From: a virus
IMG/VR virus record: IMGVR_UViG_3300032164_000001
Strand: one strand, 5' to 3'
DNA: 64,000 nt
Below, in pieces: positions 43,887 through 60,245 of this stretch. Both the position numbers and the translations under genes were made by a program. Positions within the stretch are counted from its first letter, which is position 1, and every line of letters begins with the position of its first letter. The notes below the pieces were generated by a model, which had not been told where the DNA came from, ran no database searches, and saw only the letters and a list, made by a program, of their open reading frames with translations.

Positions 43887-43961
43887 TGCCCGCGGAGGGA
43901 GTCGAACCCCCACCCATCTAGCCTCCTTACGGCGTAGTGCTCACCAATGAGCTACGCGGGC
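43887..43961 (-). ncRNA. Aberrant tRNA-like gene (bulged anticodon stem, loop GTAAGGA)
   Basis: Acceptor GCCCGCG/CGCGGGC, TAGCTCA..GAGC D arm, GGTTCGACTCC T arm. Confidence 0.7.
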
Positions 43962-43965
43962 ACAG

Positions 43966-44041
43966 TGGGGCGGGGAGGAGTTGCACACTCCGACCTCTCT
44001 GCCAACGACGACAGAGCGCTCTACTGCTGAGCTACCGTCCC
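43966..44041 (-). ncRNA. Aberrant tRNA-like gene (extended anticodon stem, non-canonical T loop)
   Basis: GGGACGG/CCGCCCC, TAGCTCAGCAGTAGAGC, CTCTGTC/GGCAGAG, GGAG-TGTGCAA-CTCC. Confidence 0.6.
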
Positions 44042-44134: not shown

Positions 44135-44602
44135 CTATCTGAGCAGCCTGAGACTGCTCAGGTACTTCTTCAACACGCTCCTTGGAGCTGGCTCGAGGCC
44201 AAGAGCCATGAGCTCACCCCTGTAGGGCTCATCTGATTCGCGGATTTGCTTGTGCCTGATGCCGGCAGCCTGAAGCCTGCTGGAGAGCTGCTCGAGCTCG
44301 GCACTGCCGTTGACAGCGAGAACCACGGCGTAGGTGCCCTCGGGCAAGAGCCCGGGAGAAGACTCGCCGGCGGCGTGCACGGCTTGCACCGCAGCCATAC
44401 CACGGGGCAAGTCATCACGGACTACGACGTAATGGGTTGTCGGATTGACTGGTTCGGTTCTAAGGGCGAGGTCGGCGTTAAGGGTGCATGCCTGACTTCC
44501 TGGTTGATGAGATACTCTAGGGTAAGCACGCTGAGTTGCTCTGTCAAGCGGTCGGCGAGCTCTTCTCTGAACGCAACAATAGCATTGGCGCAACCCCAAC
44601 AC
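44135..44602 (-). CDS. Peptidyl-tRNA hydrolase, PTH2 family (true start uncertain)
   Basis: YVVVRDDL..G..AVQAVHA..VVLAV..EL..IRE.D..ALGLEP..L..LRLL. Confidence 0.8.
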   Translation of the reverse strand: MLGLRQCYCCVQRRARRPLDRATQRAYPRVSHQPGSQACTLNADLALRTEPVNPTTHYVVVRDDLPRGMAAVQAVHAAGESSPGLLPEGTYAVVLAVNGSAELEQLSSRLQAAGIRHKQIRESDEPYRGELMALGLEPAPRSVLKKYLSSLRLLR

Positions 44603-46480: not shown

Positions 46481-46616
46481 GGAGCGGTAGCCAAAATGGA
46501 AAAGGCACTGGTCAAAGGAACCAGCAAACAGAGCAGCTTCACTACTCGCATCGGATCTCCACCGACGCAATGGGTGCAAGCCTACAAGTATGAAGGTTCG
46601 AATCCTTCCCGCTCCA
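46481..46616 (+). ncRNA. tRNA-scaffold RNA 2: 67-nt variable region carrying the same stem motif
   Basis: Acceptor GGAGCGG/CCGCTCC, AC CTGGT-CAAAGGA-ACCAG, T GAAGG-TTCGAAT-CCTTC; GCTTCACT-ACTC-GC..GC-AATG-GGTGCAAGC. Confidence 0.8.
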
Positions 46617-46666: not shown

Positions 46667-46814
46667 AAGTCTTGAGCAACGTGTAATAGGGAGAAGCAGA
46701 CAAGTCAATAGCTCAACGGTAGAGCGCAAGACTAATAATCTTGATGTTATCGGTTCAAATCCGATGTGACGTAGCAAAAAACAGCTTTTCTCACTCGCGC
46801 GTTGCTCAAGACTT
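46667..46814 (+). ncRNA. RNA 3: long stem with AATA/ACTC internal loop enclosing a complete tRNA(AAT)-like cloverleaf (46702-46773)
   Basis: AAGTCTTGAGCAACGTGT-AATA-GGGAGAAGC .. GCTTTTCTC-ACTC-GCGCGTTGCTCAAGACTT; inner GCTC/GAGC, CAAGA-CTAATAA-TCTTG, ATCGG-TTCAAAT-CCGAT. Confidence 0.8.
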
Positions 46815-46880: not shown

Positions 46881-48761
46881 ATGCAATCCATCGAGGCGCT
46901 CGGTCCAGCCGAGCGCATCATCGAAGCAATCACCAAGTACACTGATCACTGTCAGCATAATCGTCCAGGAACCATCGTTCCTGACGCAAGACAGCTTGTT
47001 GGCGTGCGCTGGGAGCAGGCCATCTGGTGCAAGGAGGGAGAGGAGAAGGTCGTCTACCGTGTGACGAAGACCGGGAAGAAGCAGACAAAGGCACGCATCG
47101 GTGTACTGGAAGCTGACGGGATGGTGAAGGATGCTGGAGTGGAGGTTGCCCGATGGCGAGAGCCAGGGCTGTTCCCTGAGGTTGTGGTGCACCTGTACCG
47201 GCAAGTGGCAGAGGTCTGGAAGCTCGACAACGAGTTCGCTGCCAGGTGGGCCTCGTGGGCCTTCGAGCACGAAGAGAACAGGGACCTGAAGATCCTGCTG
47301 GCCGCGTTCCTGCTGGTGCAGAATCGCTTCGGGGAGAAAGTTCCAGACTCGACACTGGCTGACGAGGACTACCGAACTGTTGGTGAGGCCATGTGCCTGC
47401 TCCGTCGGAAGACGGGCACCTTCAATCCGAAGATGCTCCTGCGTATCGGCGAGGTGCTGGAGCTGCCAGGTGTGATTGCAGTCAACCGTGAGCTCGGATT
47501 TGGACAGACAGGACGAAGGGCGGTGACCGGCCGGTACCGTGGCACGGTGGAGAAGTGGCTCCGATACTACGAGAGCAACCCGGCCGTGCTCGAGATGTTG
47601 GTCAAGGCGGGCTTCCGTCGGTCCATCATGCAACTGTGTCGTGTCGTTGGCTACAAGCCAGAGACCGATGCATTCTTTGCCAAGCTGCGCTGGAAGCAGA
47701 TTCAGGCGAAGGATGGCCGGCGAGGCATGGCGATCGGAAGTACGCTGACGGCGGCGGAGTCGTGGAAGGAACTTGATGAAGCGGAGATCTGCAAGCGCAT
47801 CGTTTCTTCCGGTCTTGGCTGGAAGCGCATCGTGGGCATGCTGCCCTTCGGCGTTACTCCAGCCATCATGGCCGCCGCAATCGAGGGGGAGACCCTGAGC
47901 GACGCGGACCTCGTCATTCTCACACCAACACTGGAGGAGCTCGGCCTGCTCTCCGTACCGGAGATAACGGCACGCTGGAAGAGCGCAACGGAGCGAGCGG
48001 AGAACCAACGGGCGGCCCACATTGCACGTAACGTAAAGTCGGAGGCGGTGAAGGAACAGCTGCAGGTTGCAGTCGAGAAGGCTGTACAGAAGGCCGTCGA
48101 AGAGGTGACTCGTGACCTGCGAGTGTATGTTATTGTTGATAAATCCGGTTCGATGCGAGGAGCGATCGAGCTGGCGAAGGAGTACCTGGCGAAGATGGTG
48201 GTGGCTTTCCCCCTGGACCGGCTGCACGTCTGTGTCTTCAACACCGTCGGGGTGGAAGTACAGATTCGTGTTCCAACAGCGGCTGGAGTATCTCAGGCAT
48301 TCCGTGGGCACACGGCCGGCGGAGGTACGAGTTACGCTGCAGGGGCGTGGTGCCTCTTGCGGGACCACAAGCCAAGGGAAGGCGAGGATGCACTGTTGAT
48401 CTTCGTCGGAGACCAGGAGGACAACGGGGTCGAGCAGCTCGTGCAAGTGGTGAAGGGGTCAGGTGTAGCACCAGTGGCCTTCGGCATGCTACACGTGGCA
48501 AGTGCACCGGGAATGCAGCATGGAGGCTGGTACGGCTCGCCGGATGTTGTGGAACGTGCGGCGCAGGCCCTTGCCATCCCCTGTTTCAAGATAGCGGAGG
48601 AGATCTTCTCCGACGCGTACGCAGTGCCACGGACACTACGCAACCTGATTGCATCCACTCCGGTCACGCATCCGACAATGCGCAAGACGGCGCCAAAGCG
48701 CAAGTCGCTCATCGAACAAATCTTGTCGACGCCACTTCTACAGCGTCCAGTATGGGCGTAG
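46881..48761 (+). CDS. vWA-domain protein with helical N-terminal region, Ro60/TROVE-like
   Basis: MIDAS motifs IVDKSGSM, GGGTS, FVGDQED (clear). DNEFAARWASWAF..RD..LLAAFLL resembles the TROVE N-terminus, and size and architecture match Ro60 (inference). Confidence 0.7.
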   Translation: MQSIEALGPAERIIEAITKYTDHCQHNRPGTIVPDARQLVGVRWEQAIWCKEGEEKVVYRVTKTGKKQTKARIGVLEADGMVKDAGVEVARWREPGLFPEVVVHLYRQVAEVWKLDNEFAARWASWAFEHEENRDLKILLAAFLLVQNRFGEKVPDSTLADEDYRTVGEAMCLLRRKTGTFNPKMLLRIGEVLELPGVIAVNRELGFGQTGRRAVTGRYRGTVEKWLRYYESNPAVLEMLVKAGFRRSIMQLCRVVGYKPETDAFFAKLRWKQIQAKDGRRGMAIGSTLTAAESWKELDEAEICKRIVSSGLGWKRIVGMLPFGVTPAIMAAAIEGETLSDADLVILTPTLEELGLLSVPEITARWKSATERAENQRAAHIARNVKSEAVKEQLQVAVEKAVQKAVEEVTRDLRVYVIVDKSGSMRGAIELAKEYLAKMVVAFPLDRLHVCVFNTVGVEVQIRVPTAAGVSQAFRGHTAGGGTSYAAGAWCLLRDHKPREGEDALLIFVGDQEDNGVEQLVQVVKGSGVAPVAFGMLHVASAPGMQHGGWYGSPDVVERAAQALAIPCFKIAEEIFSDAYAVPRTLRNLIASTPVTHPTMRKTAPKRKSLIEQILSTPLLQRPVWA

Positions 48762-50690: not shown

Positions 50691-52361
50691 ATGACGATTC
50701 ACGAAAAGGTGCTACGCTTCGAACTATTGGCCTCGAGTTCTACTGAACTGAATTGGCTCGACGCCGCCTTCGTTCGCGCCGCCCTGGAAGTCAGAGCAGG
50801 TGCCTGCGACGATGATGAAGATCTGACTCTGCGACTGATTGAGACTCCGGTGGCTCAGCCCGTCTTCAAAGCCGTCGCTCATCCAGGTGTGACGCTGCGG
50901 GGCCTGATGCGAGATACAACACCCCACGACTTTGCGGCAATGATCTCCAACACGGGTTACCGCCTGTCCAAGGGATACATCGAGAGCATTCTTGCTGGAA
51001 GTAGTGACATCACCCCCTTGGCCGCCGAATGCATCGCGGAGGTCTTTGGCCCCTCCAAGGAATACTGGCTGCAACAGCAGGCGGACTACAATGCCTGGCG
51101 GCTGCACCACGACGCAGAATCCGTAGAAGCCCGAAGGTTCGATGCAGACATGGATCAGAACAAAGAAATCTGTGCGAATGCCGAACCAGCCAGTCCGAAC
51201 CAGCAGTGTGACGCCAACCAGCCGATCTGGAGAGTAGTAGCAGAGGCCTTGTGGGGCATCCTTGACGACATCAGCACGGCCGGCGACATCGCAAAGGGGG
51301 ACGATGCGATGTACCGCGCGATGGTCGAGGACCTGCAGGCCAAGAAGAGTAACTACCTGGTCTCCTACGACGGGCAGACGCTCGTTCGCACTGGCGGTGA
51401 ACCGCCCCCGAATCCGCCCGTGGAAATGAGTACGCCAAGCAAGCCGAATGTCCTTCATCCGGGTGAGACACTGAAGATGATACTGAGGGAACGCAACCTC
51501 TCCATCGACGACTTGATCTCTTTCATCCGCAAGCTCTATCCGACCTGCGTCGACTTCGGTCCTGATCGCATCGCTCTCCTTCTCCAGGGCGAGGCAGACA
51601 TCTCCATCGACATTGCCTCGATGTTGCAAGGGGCTCTCGGTCCTACGCCATCGGCCTCATTGTGGCTGCAATGGCAAGCAGACTATAGCGCCCGTGCAGA
51701 GGCAGTGTATCTACAACAAGGAACGCCCGTGCAGAGGCGTCCAGTCGCGTCTTTGACGGAACAGCTGCAGGGTCGAGTCGCATGGCTCGAGCGTCAGATG
51801 GACACATGGGCAGAGCGCATCCGCAACCTCGAGAAGACGCTGGACGCCTGGCAAGAGACATCCTACACAGATCCCTGCAAGGAGTGCCAGGATTGCGGTT
51901 GCCTCTTTCTCCCCAGTGGAAACGAGAGAGATGCCACATTCAAGTGCCGACGCTGTACATCTCGGGTTGATCCTGCCGCACCGCCCAAGTGGGCGATCAT
52001 GTCGGAGCGAGACGAGGCGCCTGACAAGGCACCTGAGCCGAATGCCCCTTCGCCGTGGGCACAAATCCCCGATGCTCTGCTGGAGACACTGGCCGAGTAC
52101 GCGCACACGGCCTGGTCGGGCTGGATGCAATACATACTCCAGCAGTGCCTCGGCGGTGAGGTGGCCGTGATAGATATGCGCCAGCCCAGTCCTGGCATCC
52201 CATTGTCGGGTGTGGCGGTCATTCCCTCCGAATTGGTTGAACGATGGAGCAGGCAGATGCACACGACCTACGCCGATCTGCCGGAGGAGGAGAAGAAGAG
52301 CGACAGACTGGAGGCGCGGCGGATACTCGTCGGTCTTCGCACAGCGAAGGCGGTACCGTGA
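50691..52361 (+). CDS. Mosaic protein with two HigA-like HTH domains, a Zn ribbon and a C-terminal RyR-like domain
   Basis: HPG..L..IT...A...FG.S..YWL..Q..Y twice; CQDC..CRRC; AEYAH..W..W..Q..T.YADLPEEEK.SDR. Confidence 0.7.
   Translation: MTIHEKVLRFELLASSSTELNWLDAAFVRAALEVRAGACDDDEDLTLRLIETPVAQPVFKAVAHPGVTLRGLMRDTTPHDFAAMISNTGYRLSKGYIESILAGSSDITPLAAECIAEVFGPSKEYWLQQQADYNAWRLHHDAESVEARRFDADMDQNKEICANAEPASPNQQCDANQPIWRVVAEALWGILDDISTAGDIAKGDDAMYRAMVEDLQAKKSNYLVSYDGQTLVRTGGEPPPNPPVEMSTPSKPNVLHPGETLKMILRERNLSIDDLISFIRKLYPTCVDFGPDRIALLLQGEADISIDIASMLQGALGPTPSASLWLQWQADYSARAEAVYLQQGTPVQRRPVASLTEQLQGRVAWLERQMDTWAERIRNLEKTLDAWQETSYTDPCKECQDCGCLFLPSGNERDATFKCRRCTSRVDPAAPPKWAIMSERDEAPDKAPEPNAPSPWAQIPDALLETLAEYAHTAWSGWMQYILQQCLGGEVAVIDMRQPSPGIPLSGVAVIPSELVERWSRQMHTTYADLPEEEKKSDRLEARRILVGLRTAKAVP
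51690..51740 (+). repeat. Dispersed repeat B, one full and one partial copy inside CDS
   Basis: GCCCGTGCAGAGGCAGTGTATCTACAAC and GCCCGTGCAGAGGCGT. Confidence 0.85.
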
Positions 52362-53047: not shown

Positions 53048-53995
53048 ATGGTCTGGGAGAACCTGCTTCAGCACGCGGCGTCAGGCTACTTCGCATTCCC
53101 CTGGCTCGGCGGGCGAAAGATACACGGCAATGGGCGCACCTGGCGTGTCGTCAACAAGTTGCCTCCGGAGTTCGGATGGTGTCTGTTCGAGCTCAAGGGG
53201 GGTCGAACGGCGAAGTACTGCGAACAGGCAGAGCCATTGGCGAACTGGGAAAACGAGCATCACACAACCCGTGGGTACATTGTCGGGGATAGGTTCATCC
53301 CGGAGAGGGCTCGAGTAGATCCCGATCCAGAGAGACTGGCAGAACAGACAATCGCAGTGTATCTGGTGGAGCGAGGACTGGATCGCTTCGCACCGTGCTT
53401 GGTGGCTTTCGAAGAGGAGAATAGAGCAATCTTCGTTCGTCAGCTATTCGACTCCGTAGTCGAGGAAAAGGCGCGTGAGGCCTTCATCGATCGAAGGGTT
53501 GACATTGCCTCCATCCGCGATGTTCCACCTGCTCTGGACTTGGCTTTTCGCTTCGCGAGTCGACAGAGGGAACTCGTGGAGCGACGTAGATTAGAGCTCG
53601 AGAAGCAACGACTGGAAGAAGAACGTCGAGAGGCTGCACTGAAGAGCATCGGCACGGGGCTCGGACGACGGCAGCTGGCGACGACAGATTTTGCTGCAGC
53701 GGCTCGAGCTGCTCTGGCCGTGTCCGGGGCAGAGTTTCTGGATGCGCGCGAGGCTCACGGGCGAAATGAGATGATCGTGCAGTACCGTTTCATGAATCGT
53801 CGCTTCGAGTGCGTTGTAGATCGACTGACACTGAGATTGACGGACAGCGGTGTATGCCTACAGGACCATCGTGGAGTGAAAGGGGACACCAGGTTCACAC
53901 TGGAGTCAATCCCAGGAGTGATCTCCGAGGCGATTCGAGAGAACAAACTGCACATCTACCGCCATGTCGACGACGAGGAAGAAGATTACTGGTAG
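53048..53995 (+). CDS. Putative E2-like (Ubl-conjugating) protein
   Basis: C-terminal DSGVCL resembles the E2 catalytic G.[IV]CL segment followed by a helix (TLESIPGVISEAI); adjacent to JAB/Ubl/E1. Confidence 0.45.
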   Translation: MVWENLLQHAASGYFAFPWLGGRKIHGNGRTWRVVNKLPPEFGWCLFELKGGRTAKYCEQAEPLANWENEHHTTRGYIVGDRFIPERARVDPDPERLAEQTIAVYLVERGLDRFAPCLVAFEEENRAIFVRQLFDSVVEEKAREAFIDRRVDIASIRDVPPALDLAFRFASRQRELVERRRLELEKQRLEEERREAALKSIGTGLGRRQLATTDFAAAARAALAVSGAEFLDAREAHGRNEMIVQYRFMNRRFECVVDRLTLRLTDSGVCLQDHRGVKGDTRFTLESIPGVISEAIRENKLHIYRHVDDEEEDYW

Positions 53996-54082
53996 AAATC
54001 AAGAGTGCGCACAACAACGAGATTGATTGCTGATGTCACGAGAACACAAAGTGTCGGGCTGTGACGATTGTCCAGCTCTTTG

Positions 54083-54110
54083 GCCCGTGCAGAGGCATCG
54101 TATTTGCAAC
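54083..54110 (+). repeat. Dispersed repeat B
   Basis: GCCCGTGCAGAGGCATCGTATTTGCAAC upstream of the JAB gene. Confidence 0.85.
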
Positions 54111-54124
54111 TGGAAGGCAAGAAG

Positions 54125-54526
54125 ATGGTAGAAGTGGCTCTGGTGTTCAACAGGCATGGGGTCGGTCTACAATGGCACAGGCCGAATGGGAAATGCTCGC
54201 ATGGTGGCATTGGAGATGATCGCGGTCTGTGGGAATTCTTGTGGGCAAACCGGAAAGAAGTTGGTGGTGTGGCGCACACACATCCATGGGATGGACCGGC
54301 TGGACCATCAGGAACGGATGTAACGACATTCTCGGCGATAGAGAGAGGCTTAGGGGTCAAACTGGTGTGGCCAATCGTGACATTGACGGAGATCGGCTAC
54401 TTCGAATGGGTTGGTCCGGACAAGCACGATTATGGCGATATGCGACTGCGCAGGTTCCGTTTGGATCCAGCGGACATCGCAGAACTGCGAGAGCTTTCAT
54501 TGAAAGGAGATAACGGAAATGGCTGA
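54125..54526 (+). CDS. JAB/MPN+ (JAMM) metallopeptidase
   Basis: N-terminal Glu (MVEVA) plus HTHP..PSGTD. Confidence 0.85.
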   Translation: MVEVALVFNRHGVGLQWHRPNGKCSHGGIGDDRGLWEFLWANRKEVGGVAHTHPWDGPAGPSGTDVTTFSAIERGLGVKLVWPIVTLTEIGYFEWVGPDKHDYGDMRLRRFRLDPADIAELRELSLKGDNGNG

Positions 54527-54827
54527 TATGGTTGTTTACGATGTGCCAATGGCCAGACTCAATATCACATGGTCCGGGCAGAACGGAGACAATCCGGACT
54601 TGGTCCCGTGGGATTCATCGGATGCAGACATCCGGCGCATCGCAACGGAGGCCGTGTGCACTGGGTACGTCGCTGGCATCCCGGCTGATCCGAATGTGGA
54701 CTTCACAGACTTCGTCGTCGACCGCTTCCCGGCGACGGACGAACTGCCGTATAGATGCTTCGTCAGATCGAAAACCCCCTTTGGAGGTTTTACGCGCTTG
54801 ACTAGAATCGTTGCGCTAGTGCGCTAG
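54519..54827 (+). CDS. Ubiquitin-like (beta-grasp) protein precursor with internal GG and 12-aa tail
   Basis: ARLNITW..SDADIRRIATEAV..CFVRSKTPFGG-FTRLTRIVALVR; overlaps the JAB gene. Confidence 0.6.
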   Translation: MADMVVYDVPMARLNITWSGQNGDNPDLVPWDSSDADIRRIATEAVCTGYVAGIPADPNVDFTDFVVDRFPATDELPYRCFVRSKTPFGGFTRLTRIVALVR

Positions 54828-54843
54828 AAAAGGAGTTTTTGCC

Positions 54844-55632
54844 ATGCAAGACGTACAAGACGTACTCACACAACTATTGAGAAACAACACACAGCTTTCG
54901 AATGCCAAGAAGGCACACCTGATTGAGACGATGGCCGTGTATCGGATCGTGCGAGAAGTAATCGGGGAATCCACAGCCAGTGCCGTGCTGACACTGACGG
55001 CAGCGATAGCAAATCTTCATGCCACATTACAGCTCGGACTGACTTCCCCGTCTCACCTGTCCCAGAACGGCGCCCCACCTTGGGCGCCTACACCAATGCC
55101 CACAGCGCAGTCGCCTGTACAGGCTCCTGCACCAATGCCCGTGGCACTTGCCGCCACGGTGCCAGAGAGCAAGAAGCCGAAGAAAAAAGTAGCCCCCCTC
55201 GGCAAAGGCTATACGCTGATGGTAACCAAGACTGAACTTCGCACATCCGGTCAAGAGAATAAGTACATGAATACAACCTTTGTGATAACGCGCGCTCCTG
55301 ATCAGATAGACGAACCGGGACAGACGCCGGAGAAGTTCGAAGAATTCAGACAATCCGTCGGGATGGCAATCGCTGAACAGCGACTCATGCTGGAGGGGAA
55401 CGGGACGCCCTTGACAGTGGAATTCTTGATCGCATGCGGCATTGACATACCCCCTGACCTCATCACATTGGACATAAGCAAGCCCATCTACAGGTTGGTG
55501 ACGGCAGAAGTCAAGTTCTATGACAAATTCAACAATGAAGAACACGAAAAACTTCGGAACTACCGACCTGTTGACTGCTCACAGGAGCGCTTGATCGAAC
55601 AAGTTCTCAGTTCTGGCCCGGGGTCAATCTGA
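54844..55632 (+). CDS. Hypothetical protein with Pro/Ala linker
   Basis: 262 aa, AGGAG SD, overlaps E1 start. Confidence 0.65.
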   Translation: MQDVQDVLTQLLRNNTQLSNAKKAHLIETMAVYRIVREVIGESTASAVLTLTAAIANLHATLQLGLTSPSHLSQNGAPPWAPTPMPTAQSPVQAPAPMPVALAATVPESKKPKKKVAPLGKGYTLMVTKTELRTSGQENKYMNTTFVITRAPDQIDEPGQTPEKFEEFRQSVGMAIAEQRLMLEGNGTPLTVEFLIACGIDIPPDLITLDISKPIYRLVTAEVKFYDKFNNEEHEKLRNYRPVDCSQERLIEQVLSSGPGSI

Positions 55633-56228
55633 TGCAAAAGGAGCGGCCCTGGCCAAAGGTTGCCGTTGTCGGAATAGGCGCCCTGGGTTCGCATGTCGTC
55701 TTGCTTGCTCGGAATTGGAAGGCGAAGCTGCGTGTCATCGACGGCGACAAGGTCGAGCAGAAGAATGTGCTGGCACAGATGCATTCAGAGCTAGGGAAGG
55801 GGAGGAACAAGGCTGCGGCACTTAAGGTGTTGATGCAGGGCATGTTCCGCCTGGAGATAGAAGCCTTCCCCGTGAAGGTCAACGAATGGAACTTGAAGGG
55901 GCTGCTCGGTGAGATGGCGCTGATCATCGACTGCACCGACAACGTGGCGGCTCGAAACTGCATCAAGTCGTTTGCACTGAAGGATGAGATTCCTTGCCTG
56001 CATGTGTGCTTATCGGCTGATGGAATGCTGGCCCGAGTGGTGTGGGCTCAACAGAACTTCAAGGCTGACAAAGAGAGTGGAGACGGAGCGACGTGTGAGG
56101 ACGGGGCGAATGTGTGGTTCCACGCGATGGCGGCTGCACTCGTCGTGCGACTGGCCCAGCAGTTCCTGCTCGATGGTCGAATGGAAAGCTGGATGCTTGC
56201 GCCAGCAGCTCTCCTCAGGATAGCATAG
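55632..56228 (+). CDS. ThiF/MoeB/E1-family adenylyltransferase
   Basis: VVGIGALGS, IDGDKVEQKN..Q, NKA, IIDCTDN..AR; candidate Cys in ATCE. Confidence 0.9.
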   Translation: MQKERPWPKVAVVGIGALGSHVVLLARNWKAKLRVIDGDKVEQKNVLAQMHSELGKGRNKAAALKVLMQGMFRLEIEAFPVKVNEWNLKGLLGEMALIIDCTDNVAARNCIKSFALKDEIPCLHVCLSADGMLARVVWAQQNFKADKESGDGATCEDGANVWFHAMAAALVVRLAQQFLLDGRMESWMLAPAALLRIA

Positions 56229-56711: not shown

Positions 56712-57026
56712 TCACCCGTTTGAGCATGCTGGCTGGGGTAGGCCGGCTATCTTGCAAGCGAGGGACAATCCCGCGGGGAACAGCTTGTAGAGCGTCGTCA
56801 GCGTGAGCTTGCACCCGGTGCAGACCTCGCGAACGTGTGGCGAGCGGTGCTTGCTGACATAGAAGCACCTGAGAAACTCGATGACCTCGATGTGTGGCAC
56901 GTCGAGCTCGAGGCCGAGCTTCCGGGCATAGGAGACGGCAATGGGCGGCTCCCAGTCACTTGCATGGACGAAGTAGCCGTTGCCATCCAGTTGGATGATA
57001 CGGCCAAGGGTGTTCAACGTCTTCAC
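56712..57026 (-). CDS. TusE/DsrC/DsvC-family sulfur relay protein
   Basis: LDGNGY..DW..IA..A..L..H..VI.FLR.FY..P..LY.LFP.G..ACKIAGLP.P.C. Confidence 0.9.
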   Translation of the reverse strand: MKTLNTLGRIIQLDGNGYFVHASDWEPPIAVSYARKLGLELDVPHIEVIEFLRCFYVSKHRSPHVREVCTGCKLTLTTLYKLFPAGLSLACKIAGLPQPACSNG

Positions 57027-57268
57027 TTCGGCGTCAGGCTGGCAAGAAGTCCGTCCATGACGCCATCGATGATCTTGTCGAGAGCCTCGTCGACGGCTGT
57101 GTCAACAGCGTCATCGGGGAGAGGGATCTCAACGGAAAAGGTGTCGGAGTCGTCTGAACCGGAATGCTCTGCATCTTCTGAGCCGGAATGCTCTGCATCT
57201 TCTGAGCCGGAATGCTCTGCATCTTCACCTGGGTCATATTTACACACATATGCTGAAAATTCTTTCAT
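57023..57268 (-). CDS. Small acidic protein with 3x EDAEHSGS (24-bp tandem repeat)
   Basis: Tandem at ~57155-57226. Confidence 0.55.
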   Translation of the reverse strand: MKEFSAYVCKYDPGEDAEHSGSEDAEHSGSEDAEHSGSDDSDTFSVEIPLPDDAVDTAVDEALDKIIDGVMDGLLASLTPK

Positions 57269-59437: not shown

Positions 59438-59990
59438 ATCCCCATGCGTATGTCAGGCGTCGGTCCTCCCACATACATGGCATGTCAACGGGTTAACCTC
59501 ATGTTGGTCAACAAGCTTTTGCTTAGGCTTGTTCTCAGGTGGAGGGTGTAAGTAGAAAGCGCAGGAGGATGCCAACAGGTCAGTAAAAACCTGCACTTCT
59601 TCTTCATTGAGTGGCTTGCTTGTGACGGTCAATCTTCTCTTGTCTTTGGTAAGAGCGGGAATCAAACGAAACGATTTGGAGATGAGATGTACTGGTGGCC
59701 AGAATGCAGCATCTGCAAACGTTCGTAGGTTCTTACACGATTTACAAGTTACATCAGCAGTCTTCTCTGTCAGCAAGTGTTGTGGGACTGGCAGTAACCG
59801 GTGGCCTGCATGCCCGATTGGGTGGGAGTACGGTCGACATAGAGCTACGGCAGTACCGCGCCAGTCGTATACCTTGAAGTGGACAACCCTTTTCACTTGG
59901 ATCTCCCCTACAGAACTAACTCATCGAGTTGCGGCAGAATAGACTTACACTTCCACTTGAGGAATCCCCATGCGTATGTCAGGCGTCGGT
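59438..59990. repeat. 27-bp exact direct repeat (59438-59464 and 59964-59990)
   Basis: ATCCCCATGCGTATGTCAGGCGTCGGT x2. Confidence 0.9.
59453..59896 (-). CDS. Hypothetical protein bracketed by the 27-bp repeat
   Basis: VH..ALC..VTCKSC motif. Confidence 0.55.
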   Translation of the reverse strand: MKRVVHFKVYDWRGTAVALCRPYSHPIGHAGHRLLPVPQHLLTEKTADVTCKSCKNLRTFADAAFWPPVHLISKSFRLIPALTKDKRRLTVTSKPLNEEEVQVFTDLLASSCAFYLHPPPENKPKQKLVDQHEVNPLTCHVCGRTDA

Positions 59991-60009
59991 GTCGATTCAG
60001 TTGATTGCG

Positions 60010-60052
60010 GCAGTGTAAACAGTGCAAACAGTGTAAACAGTGCAAACAGTGT
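60010..60052. repeat. 9-bp tandem repeat CAGTG(T/C)AAA, ~4.7 copies
   Basis: cagtgtaaa cagtgcaaa cagtgtaaa cagtgcaaa cagtgta. Confidence 0.9.
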
Positions 60053-60245
60053 ACGATAGAAACAGTCTCACGGTCTGCCTTTCCGATCTGGAAACTGACT
60101 CGCGATGACAGCGATCTCAAGAAGTCTGCGTTCATGTCTCAGAGCTTGGTCGAGTTTCACATAGGTAGCGACATGCTTCGTACCAGTGGCGACGTCAAAA
60201 ATCTTGAAGTACACGACGCCGGTGTTGGTGGAGAGCTTGATCATC

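What the first reader, a model, noticed from the sequence alone, without database searches (positions are those of the whole stretch)
53048..56228. Phage-encoded ubiquitin-like conjugation set (E2-like, JAB, Ubl with cleavable tail, E1)
Seen: a JAMM motif protein overlaps a small protein ending KTPFGG plus 12 extra residues, with a ThiF/E1 and an upstream protein containing DSGVCL. Established: JAB peptidases expose Ubl C-terminal Gly, E1 adenylates it and E2 accepts it on Cys; bacterial systems of this type are mostly known as host-encoded (e.g. antiphage Bil). Inference: a phage-borne tagging system in which the JAB matures the Ubl. The E2 and Ubl folds are the weakest calls. The 262-aa gene between Ubl and E1 could be a substrate or adaptor.
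Basis: partly seen in the sequence, partly recalled or inferred. Interest (0 to 1): 0.8.

Follow-up and report, generated by a model that had tools for sequence, protein, structure and literature searches.

The report
Phage ubiquitin-like tagging gene set
A large phage carries a small ubiquitin-like protein, the protease that trims it, its activating enzyme and a new cysteine protein, as part of a five-gene set (with a Ro60-like RNA-binding gene) that recurs in about a hundred huge-phage and bacterial loci and that I found in no paper I could search.

Summary

- **E1:** a minimal 198-aa ThiF-type enzyme (Pfam 1e-19).
- **JAB:** it keeps an invariant JAMM motif.
- **Ubl:** the small protein folds as a beta-grasp and belongs to a new family. 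Every member has RPKTPFG followed by a tail of 0 to 83 unrelated residues.
- **Trimming:** loci without a JAB gene always have a Ubl that ends at that Gly. Every Ubl with a tail has a JAB. So JAB most likely trims after Gly89. The mature end is ...PFG, not GG, and the tail here is 13 residues.
- **"E2":** the 315-aa protein has two OB folds, a long helix and a Cys-bearing alpha/beta domain. Cys270 is universal. The UBC fold is only weakly matched, so the E2 role is inferred.
- **262-aa gene:** it is an orphan insert, not a substrate or adaptor.
- **Wider set:** the cassette is part of a colinear set, vWA/Ro60-like, p315, JAB, Ubl, E1. This order holds in 69 of 76 phage-side loci (72 of them from IMG/VR). 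It also occurs in 29 MAG loci, one of them clearly chromosomal, so it is not phage-only.

This scan has noted the same module before in at least 37 other genomes. I found no paper describing it.

The parts
46881..48761 (+). vWA-domain protein (626 aa), called Ro60-like by an earlier follow-up. It is the conserved first gene of the module. Here it is separated from p315 by about 4.3 kb of lineage-specific genes.
   Evidence: Weak Pfam VWA_2, VWA_CoxE and VWA hits at residues 410-540. A homolog lies directly upstream of p315 in 73 of 76 phage-side loci (median gap 66 nt) and in most MAG loci. The Ro60 fold was not tested here.
53048..53995 (+). p315, the candidate E2-type carrier. It has a tandem OB domain (about 12-135), a long helix (161-201) and a C-terminal alpha/beta domain (204-305) with the universal Cys270 (53855-53857). 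Cys255 (53810-53812) is conserved in this branch.
54125..54526 (+). Minimal JAMM/JAB metallopeptidase (133 aa from ATG 54125). The catalytic Glu is residue 3, and H-x-H-x8-S-x2-D lies at 54275-54319.
   Evidence: Prok-JAB E 0.0027, below the cut-off. E3, H51, H53, S62 and D65 are invariant in 55 sequences. The motif aligns to the Rpn11 JAMM motif. The ribosome-binding site and start are shown.
54519..54827 (+). Ubiquitin-like protein precursor (102 aa). The predicted mature part is residues 1-89 (54519-54785), ending ...K-T-P-F-G. The predicted removable tail is residues 90-102 (54786-54824).
   Evidence: The model shows a beta-beta-alpha-beta-beta grasp with core pLDDT about 93. Fold hits are almost all Ubl, RA, PB1 or UBX domains. 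G89 is invariant and tails run from 0 to 83 aa. Tails covary with JAB.
54844..55632 (+). 262-aa orphan ORF inserted between Ubl and E1. It is not part of the conserved module.
   Evidence: No homolog in 105 related loci, only itself in the 5.8-billion-protein search and no family hit. There is only a weak DUF669 lead.
55632..56228 (+). Minimal E1 (ThiF-type adenylating enzyme, 198 aa) with a conserved Cys165 (56124-56126).
   Evidence: Pfam ThiF 1e-19. It matches the E1 part of the PADLOC Cap2 E1-E2 models at 1.7e-14 and PDB MoeB at 1e-7. G-x-G-A-L-G, D-x-D-R-x-E, D-C-x-D-N and T-C-E are conserved in 66 sequences.
56712..57026 (-). TusE/DsrC-family gene on the opposite strand. It is a neighbour only in this phage lineage and not a module member.
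   Evidence: Pfam DsrC 5e-20 and NCBIfam TIGR03342 6e-18. A homolog lies near the module in only 1 of 76 loci.

Best explanation
This is a ubiquitin-like protein activation and conjugation module.

1. The 102-aa precursor is trimmed by the JAMM peptidase right after the invariant Gly89, which exposes ...K-T-P-F-G.
2. The minimal ThiF-type E1 adenylates that Gly and probably holds it on Cys165.
3. The Ubl then passes to Cys270 of p315. The C-terminal domain of p315 acts as an E2-type carrier, and its tandem OB domain and long helix choose the partner or target.
4. The target is most likely within, or recruited by, the particle formed by the co-inherited vWA/Ro60-like protein and its tRNA-like RNAs.
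5. The JAB probably also removes the tag.

Shown here: gene identities, the conserved catalytic residues, the beta-grasp fold, the link between tails and JAB, and the five-gene synteny. Inferred: thioester transfer, the E2 role of p315, the nature of the target and any role in infection.
For: **E1**
- ThiF hit at 1e-19 with the adenylation motifs and one Cys conserved.

**JAB**
- JAMM residues are invariant.

**Ubl**
- Invariant RPKTPFG followed by tails of 0-83 unrelated residues.

**JAB and tails**
- All 8 JAB-less loci with a readable motif have a Ubl ending at that Gly.
- All 80 Ubls with a tail have a JAB gene in the locus (Fisher p 1e-6, not corrected for phylogeny).
- Whole-genome check: 0 of 5 JAB-less genomes have a JAB of this family, and 4 of 4 positive controls do.
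- JAB is also kept in 13 loci whose Ubl has no tail, which fits a second role in removing the tag.

**p315**
- It always travels with E1 and Ubl: 69 of 76 loci are colinear, as are 29 MAG loci and Rctr197k.
- Cys270 is universal, sits four residues after the last strand of a helix plus four-strand meander domain, and is followed by helices.
- There are weak RWD and UEV matches.

**Operon**
- Overlapping or abutting genes and no + strand terminator.
Against: - There is no HPN motif and no E2 family hit in 92 members.
- The Cys lies closer to strand 4 than in canonical E2s.
- The JAB Pfam score is below the gathering threshold.
- No E3 and no identified target.
- The nearest E1 families by sequence are sulfur-carrier activators, ThiF and MoeB.
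Confidence: 0.6

Rival explanations
1. E2-independent tagging, as in archaeal SAMP/UbaA or Thermus TtuB/TtuC. The E1 alone activates and transfers the Ubl. p315 is not a carrier but an RNA- or protein-binding adaptor, or itself the main target, within the Ro60-like particle.
For: The E1 is closest to MoeB, ThiF and UbaA-type enzymes, including the SAMP-activating E1 at 8e-11. The E2 fold of p315 is unproven. The N-terminal half of p315 resembles S1, CSD and IF1-type OB folds.
Against: Cys270 is universal in p315 across very distant branches, while neighbouring residues vary. A p315-E1 pair persists even where Ubl and JAB were not found nearby. A mere target would not need an invariant Cys.
Confidence: 0.2
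2. Sulfur-carrier pathway. The Ubl is converted to a C-terminal thiocarboxylate by the E1 and donates sulfur, for example to thiolate tRNA or the tRNA-like RNAs. JAB unmasks the Gly, as Mec+ and QbsD do, and the neighbouring TusE/DsrC relays sulfur.
For: The best E1 hits are ThiF and MoeB. JAB plus a Ubl with a masked Gly is the CysO/Mec+ and QbsE/QbsD pattern (known biochemistry; Iyer et al. 2006, PMC1779556). A TusE/DsrC gene lies 480 nt downstream on the other strand. tRNA-like genes lie nearby.
Against: - TusE/DsrC accompanies the module in 1 of 76 loci.
- No rhodanese, cysteine desulfurase or PP-loop thiolase is among the conserved genes. Apart from the five core genes, the only families recurring in many loci are homing endonucleases.
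- The E1 scores lie far below every sulfur-pathway equivalog cut-off, for example 59.5 against 275.
- The terminal motif is a single Gly after Phe, not Gly-Gly.
- The obligatory Cys protein and vWA protein have no role in known sulfur-carrier routes.
Confidence: 0.1
3. The activated Gly89 is passed to a non-protein acceptor, such as the 3' end of the tRNA-like RNAs of the Ro60-like particle. p315 would act as the RNA-binding transferase.
For: The module always sits with an RNA-particle gene. tRNA-like genes lie upstream of it here, and ARAGORN finds a tRNA within 2.5 kb upstream in 50 of 86 loci. p315 carries S1/CSD-like OB folds. An acyl-adenylate is chemically able to acylate a ribose hydroxyl (general chemistry, inference).
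Confidence: 0.05

Closest known systems
Bil systems (BilA Ubl, BilB E2, BilC JAB/JAMM, BilD E1) of bacterial antiphage defence
   Same: The same four roles as separate genes in one operon: a Ubl with a C-terminal Gly, a JAMM peptidase, an E1 and a Cys protein in the E2 position. No E3 is encoded, and the E2 is proposed to pick the target (PMC11601596).
   Different: - The E1 here is a single 198-aa adenylation domain, not the IAD-AAD-CYS architecture.
- The Ubl and the E2 candidate hit no known family.
- The E2 candidate carries two OB folds and a long helix.
- The set is tied to a vWA/Ro60-like gene and tRNA-like RNAs, and it is carried mostly by huge phages rather than defence islands.
Type II CBASS Cap2 (E2-E1 fusion) and Cap3 (JAB)
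   Same: The E1 matches the E1 part of the Cap2 models (PADLOC 1.7e-14; NCBIfam 6A-MBL cap2_3 1.6e-13). A JAB partner is present.
   Different: There is no E2-E1 fusion. A separate Ubl is used instead of a CD-NTase C-terminus. No CD-NTase or effector is among the conserved genes.
Bub (6E/DUF6527) operons
   Same: A diverged bacterial Ubl, E1, E2 and peptidase set in which a peptidase cleaves a precursor to release the Ubl (PMC11601596).
   Different: Bub works through Ser and Tyr oxyesters and has a DUF6527 serine protease. Here both the E1 and p315 keep a conserved Cys, and no DUF6527 family was hit.
E2-less prokaryotic Ubl systems: archaeal SAMP/UbaA/HvJAMM1 and Thermus TtuB/TtuC; sulfur carriers CysO/Mec+ and QbsE/QbsD
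   Same: A small single-domain MoeB/ThiF-like E1, a beta-grasp Ubl and a JAMM peptidase that unmasks or removes it (PMC4443979 title and abstract; PMC1779556).
   Different: Those Ubls end in Gly-Gly and double as sulfur carriers. Here there is a single invariant Gly after Phe, an obligatory Cys protein and a vWA protein, and no conserved sulfur-transfer partner.
Bacterial and phage Ro60 (Rsr) with Y RNAs, including Thermus phage phiLo Ro60 with Yrl1/Yrl2
   Same: A ring-protein gene preceded by tRNA-like RNA genes, also in phages (PMC4201824 and PMC12135203).
   Different: Those papers report no Ubl, E1 or JAB partner; the words ubiquitin and ThiF do not occur in PMC12135203.

Membership tests
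ThiF/MoeB/E1 adenylating enzymes (PF00899) | Score above the Pfam gathering threshold over the Rossmann adenylation domain | tested here: met
   71.1 bits against a cut-off of 28.1, E 1e-19, residues 9-156.
ThiF/MoeB/E1 adenylating enzymes (PF00899) | Gly-rich nucleotide loop and the D-x-x-D-N acidic motif of the adenylation site | tested here: met
   G-x-G-A-L-G-S-H, D-x-D-R-x-E and D-C-x-D-N are conserved at 90% or more in 66 sequences. The mapping to MoeB active-site residues rests on my own knowledge.
Canonical E1 (thioester-forming) | Catalytic cysteine that accepts the Ubl | tested here: inconclusive
   One Cys (C165, motif T-C-E) is conserved at 90% or more. Its position relative to the crossover loop, and its chemistry, were not tested.
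JAMM/MPN+ metallopeptidases (Prok-JAB PF14464) | E ... H-x-H-x(7-8)-S-x-x-D metal-binding and catalytic motif | tested here: met
   E3, H51, H53, S62 and D65 are invariant in 55 sequences. The motif aligns to the Rpn11 JAMM motif.
JAMM/MPN+ metallopeptidases (Prok-JAB PF14464) | Score above the family threshold | tested here: not met
   18 bits against a cut-off of 25, E 0.0027. The profile against PDB gives E 0.8 only. Membership rests on the motif.
Ubiquitin-like beta-grasp modifiers | Beta-grasp fold (beta-beta-alpha-beta-beta) | tested here: met
   [not shown]
Ubiquitin-like beta-grasp modifiers | Conserved C-terminal Gly that is free or can be freed by a peptidase | tested here: met
   G89 is invariant in 118 sequences, with tails of 0-83 residues. 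Having no JAB goes with having no tail.
E2/UBC superfamily (UQ_con, Prok-E2_A-E, RWD, UEV) | UBC fold: N-terminal helix, four-strand meander, Cys loop, C-terminal helices | tested here: inconclusive
   [not shown]
E2/UBC superfamily (UQ_con, Prok-E2_A-E, RWD, UEV) | Invariant catalytic Cys | tested here: met
   C270 is invariant in 92 and 56 sequences and is kept in the distant LR756511 and Dolichospermum homologs.
E2/UBC superfamily (UQ_con, Prok-E2_A-E, RWD, UEV) | HPN motif upstream of the Cys, or any family-model hit | tested here: not met
   There is no HPN; the sequence before the Cys is L-T-D-S-G-V. None of 92 members hits an E2 family in Pfam at E 0.05 or better, and NCBIfam and PADLOC give nothing. 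Some bacterial E2 families also lack the His (PMC1779556).
Bil system | [quoted passage not shown] | tested here: not met
   The E1 is a single 198-aa domain. The architecture is defined in PMC11601596.
Type II CBASS | Cap2 E2-E1 fusion acting on a CD-NTase | tested here: not met
   Only the E1 part of the Cap2 models is matched (positions 278-409 of 489). The genes are separate, and no CD-NTase is among the conserved neighbours.
ThiS/MoaD-type sulfur-carrier pathway | Equivalog-level match of the E1, a Gly-Gly terminus and a conserved sulfur-transfer partner | tested here: not met
   E1 scores are 59.5 against 275 (ThiF) and 47.5 against 266 (MoeB). The second Gly is present in 63 of 118. TusE/DsrC is near the module in 1 of 76 loci.

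The most novel reading that the evidence does not exclude
The module couples an RNA-surveillance particle to ubiquitin-like tagging. The OB domains of p315 would dock on the tRNA-like RNAs held by the Ro60-like vWA protein. The Ubl would then be written onto a component of that particle, or onto the RNA 3' end itself. That would make it a protein-RNA tagging system used by huge phages and myxobacteria.
Probability: 0.15. Interest if true: 0.9.

Novelty: new variant of a known kind. Interest (0 to 1): 0.72.

Why it matters
Bacterial ubiquitin-like conjugation is so far known from host defence systems: CBASS type II, Bil and Bub.

This set differs in three ways:
- It uses new families for both the tag and the Cys partner.
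- It has the smallest E1 architecture of these systems.
- It is carried mainly by huge phages and is always linked to a Ro60-like RNA-particle gene.

If the chemistry is confirmed, it would show that viruses of bacteria bring their own tagging machinery. It would also connect protein tagging with RNA quality control outside eukaryotes.

The link between JAB and tails already gives a clear, testable cleavage site (after Gly89). After trypsin, a modified lysine should carry a T-P-F-G remnant of about 402.19 Da (my own calculation).

Tried and rejected
1. Family searches for p315, Ubl and the 262-aa ORF gave nothing: Pfam, PHROGs, PADLOC, NCBIfam and PDB sequence profiles.
2. Foldseek and VIA searches of the whole p315 model were dominated by the OB domains. 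UBC-like hits were weak and tied.
3. A profile of the C-terminal domain against 1.84 billion representatives found 429 proteins. The 150 listed all match it at their C-terminal end, and most are about 290-350 aa like p315. This gave no bridge to annotated E2 families.
4. I tried to collect Prok-E2_B sequences for a profile-profile test. There were 0 hits in 151 Myxococcota genomes and none in the controls, so I dropped this.
5. ESM Atlas gave no usable hit for p315 residues 200-315 and only a weak DUF669 lead for the 262-aa ORF.
6. Conserved extra genes: TusE/DsrC, Pth2, DUF5662, TSCPD, the HTH protein and the 267-aa gene are not conserved near the module, with 0-4 of about 105 loci each. The recurrent inserts are homing endonucleases.
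7. The sulfur-carrier reading was considered and ranked low; the reasons are under the rival explanations.
8. No whole genome is held for this window.
Full report
**Setting.** The window is phage DNA. It encodes a portal protein (phrog_12, 1e-34) and tail-fibre-like proteins. No cellular genome is held for it. The cassette lies in a long run of + strand genes with abutting or overlapping reading frames, and there is no + strand terminator-like site between 50000 and 57500.

**Observation.**
- p315 (53048-53995) contains D-S-G-V-C-L.
- The JAMM protein is listed from 54068 but really starts at ATG 54125, behind GGAAGG. That gives 133 aa.
- The small protein (54519-54827) has an AAGGAG site and overlaps the JAB stop by 8 nt. 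It reads ...K-T-P-F-G-G plus 12 residues.
- The 262-aa ORF (54844-55632) overlaps the E1 start by one base.
- The E1 (55632-56228) is a ThiF-family protein: Pfam 1e-19, 71 bits against a cut-off of 28.

**E1.**
- The 198-aa protein matches only the E1 part of the Cap2 E1-E2 models (PADLOC 1.7e-14), then MoeB in the PDB (1e-7).
- It matches ThiF, MoeB, UbaA and cap2_3 in NCBIfam, all far below their equivalog cut-offs.
- In 66 family members the nucleotide loop, D-x-D-R-x-E, a Lys, D-C-x-D-N and a single Cys (T-C-E, Cys165) are conserved at 90% or more.
- It is therefore a minimal, probably active adenylating enzyme that has a candidate thioester Cys.

**JAB.** Pfam Prok-JAB scores below threshold (E 0.0027). 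In 55 aligned family members, Glu3, His51, His53, Ser62 and Asp65 are invariant. The profile aligns this stretch to the Rpn11 JAMM motif.

**Ubl.**
- The family has 118 members at 90% clustering and no Pfam domain.
- All share R-P-K-T-P-F-G, with G89 invariant.
- After that Gly the sequences stop (6), have one residue (58), 2-10 residues (39), 11-30 (4) or more than 30 (11, up to 83). The longer tails include unrelated zinc-ribbon-like and helical sequences. The next residue is Gly in only 63 of 118.
- The AlphaFold model is a beta-beta-alpha-beta-beta grasp with core pLDDT about 93.

**JAB trims the Ubl.** Twenty-nine MAG loci from the GTDB collection carry the same module.
- Nine of them lack JAB. 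In these, p315 and Ubl abut, so there is no room for a JAB gene.
- All eight JAB-less loci with a readable motif have a Ubl that ends exactly at the invariant Gly.
- Every Ubl with a tail (14 MAG loci and 66 viral loci) has a JAB gene in the locus.
- The 2x2 table (80, 13, 0, 8) gives Fisher p 1e-6. This is not corrected for shared ancestry, and the JAB-less loci fall in perhaps three lineages.
- A JAB profile finds nothing in five JAB-less genomes and exactly one copy in four JAB-bearing control genomes.
- The required job of JAB is therefore to expose Gly89. Here it would remove 13 residues, not 12.
- JAB is also kept in 13 loci whose Ubl has no tail, which suggests a second role in removing the tag.

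**p315.**
- The family has more than 250 members, and no Pfam hit in 92 scanned.
- The model (pLDDT 91.7) has two OB-like barrels (12-135), a 40-residue helix (161-201) and an alpha/beta domain (204-305).
- That last domain consists of helices 204-225, a four-strand meander (229-266), a loop with Cys270, a short helix and helix 288-297.
- The UBC fold is therefore compatible but not shown.
- Cys255 and Cys270 are invariant in this branch.
- In the distant homologs of huge phage LR756511 and of the Dolichospermum plasmid pAfl69, only the Cys270 equivalent (G-I-C-L) is kept. Cys270 is thus the universal residue.
- A profile of this domain finds 429 representative proteins. The 150 listed all match it at their C-terminal end, and most are about 290-350 aa like p315.

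**The larger module.** Seventy-two IMG/VR loci encode a p315 relative, on contigs of up to 619 kb.
- I added two loci from the look-up of encoding contigs, one of which is a Myxococcota MAG contig, and two GenBank phages.
- Of these 76 loci, 69 show the colinear order vWA protein, p315, JAB, Ubl, E1. The median gaps are 66, 247, 4 and 387 nt between stop-to-stop frames.
- Rctr197k has the same order with more inserts.
- Apart from the five core genes, the only gene families that recur in many of these loci (41 and 36 of 68) are HNH homing endonucleases. A LAGLIDADG-like one occurs in 9 loci.
- The 262-aa ORF, the 267-aa and 556-aa upstream genes, DUF5662 and TusE/DsrC are not conserved, with 0-1 loci each. 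Pth2 is near the module in 3 of about 105 loci.
- The 262-aa ORF has no relative but itself among 5.8 billion proteins.
- In this window the vWA gene (46881-48761) is preceded by tRNA-like genes.

**Not phage-only.** In a 544-kb contig of a 12.3-Mb Polyangiaceae MAG, the module lies between an EF-Tu paralog and a Ser/Thr kinase with TPR repeats. About half of the 29 MAG loci are Myxococcota. A cultured cyanobacterium, Dolichospermum flos-aquae CCAP 1403/13F, carries a p315-like gene and an E1 of this family on plasmid pAfl69, next to an IS1634 transposase.

**Literature.** Searches combining phage, ubiquitin-like, JAB, ThiF, TROVE, Ro60 and Y RNA found no description of this module.
- The jumbo-phage survey by Iyer et al. 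mentions TROVE proteins but no Ubl set.
- The 2006 survey of prokaryotic Ubl operons lists no vWA-linked type.
- The phiLo Ro60 paper does not mention ubiquitin or ThiF.
- A preprint on Asgard viruses notes Ro60 and three ThiF genes in one virus group without connecting them.
- The library is incomplete, so this is absence in what I could search.

**Earlier notes of this scan.** Earlier notes describe the same five-gene module in at least 37 other genomes. They also found the E2 fold only weakly supported. I used them as leads only.

**Verdict.** This is a real, widely conserved Ubl, JAB and E1 set with a new Cys partner. The maturation step is well supported, while the E2 step and the target are inferred.

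Noticed in passing
window 56712-57026 (-): A TusE/DsrC-family sulfur-relay gene lies next to the E1 (Pfam 5e-20). It is near the module in only 1 of 76 related loci, so it is probably an independent auxiliary gene.
   Followed up: partly
window 57023-57268 (-): An 81-aa acidic ORF with three tandem copies of D-A-E-H-S-G-S-E. Function unknown.
   Followed up: no
window 59908-60135 (-): A 75-aa ORF with a run of C-L-H repeats (C-L-H-C-L-H-C-L-H-C-L-H-C). It could be a short tandem DNA repeat or a metal-binding peptide.
   Followed up: no
window 50691-52361 (+): A 556-aa protein that hits a plasmid-antitoxin HTH family (phrog_1381, 6e-12). It is inserted between the vWA gene and p315 and is not conserved in related loci.
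   Followed up: partly
window 46481-46616 and 46702-46773 (+); 43887-44041 (-): tRNA and tRNA-like genes. One is 136 nt long yet matches the whole tRNA model. They lie directly upstream of the vWA gene and beside a Pth2 gene (44135-44602).
   Followed up: partly
L093 4555-5940: In a Polyangiaceae MAG, an EF-Tu paralog (all three EF-Tu domains, E 2e-51) sits directly upstream of the vWA gene of the module. It is not seen in the other 28 MAG loci.
   Followed up: partly
L108 2671-4352 (Dolichospermum flos-aquae CCAP 1403/13F plasmid pAfl69): A cultured cyanobacterium carries a p315-family gene and an E1 of this family side by side, followed by an IS1634 transposase. No Ubl or JAB was detected in the 11 kb read, so this may be a reduced or disrupted copy.
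   Followed up: partly
L005-L076, between the core genes: HNH and LAGLIDADG-like homing endonuclease genes are repeatedly inserted between the five core genes in related huge phages. This explains the variable spacing.
   Followed up: partly
[not shown]
   Followed up: no
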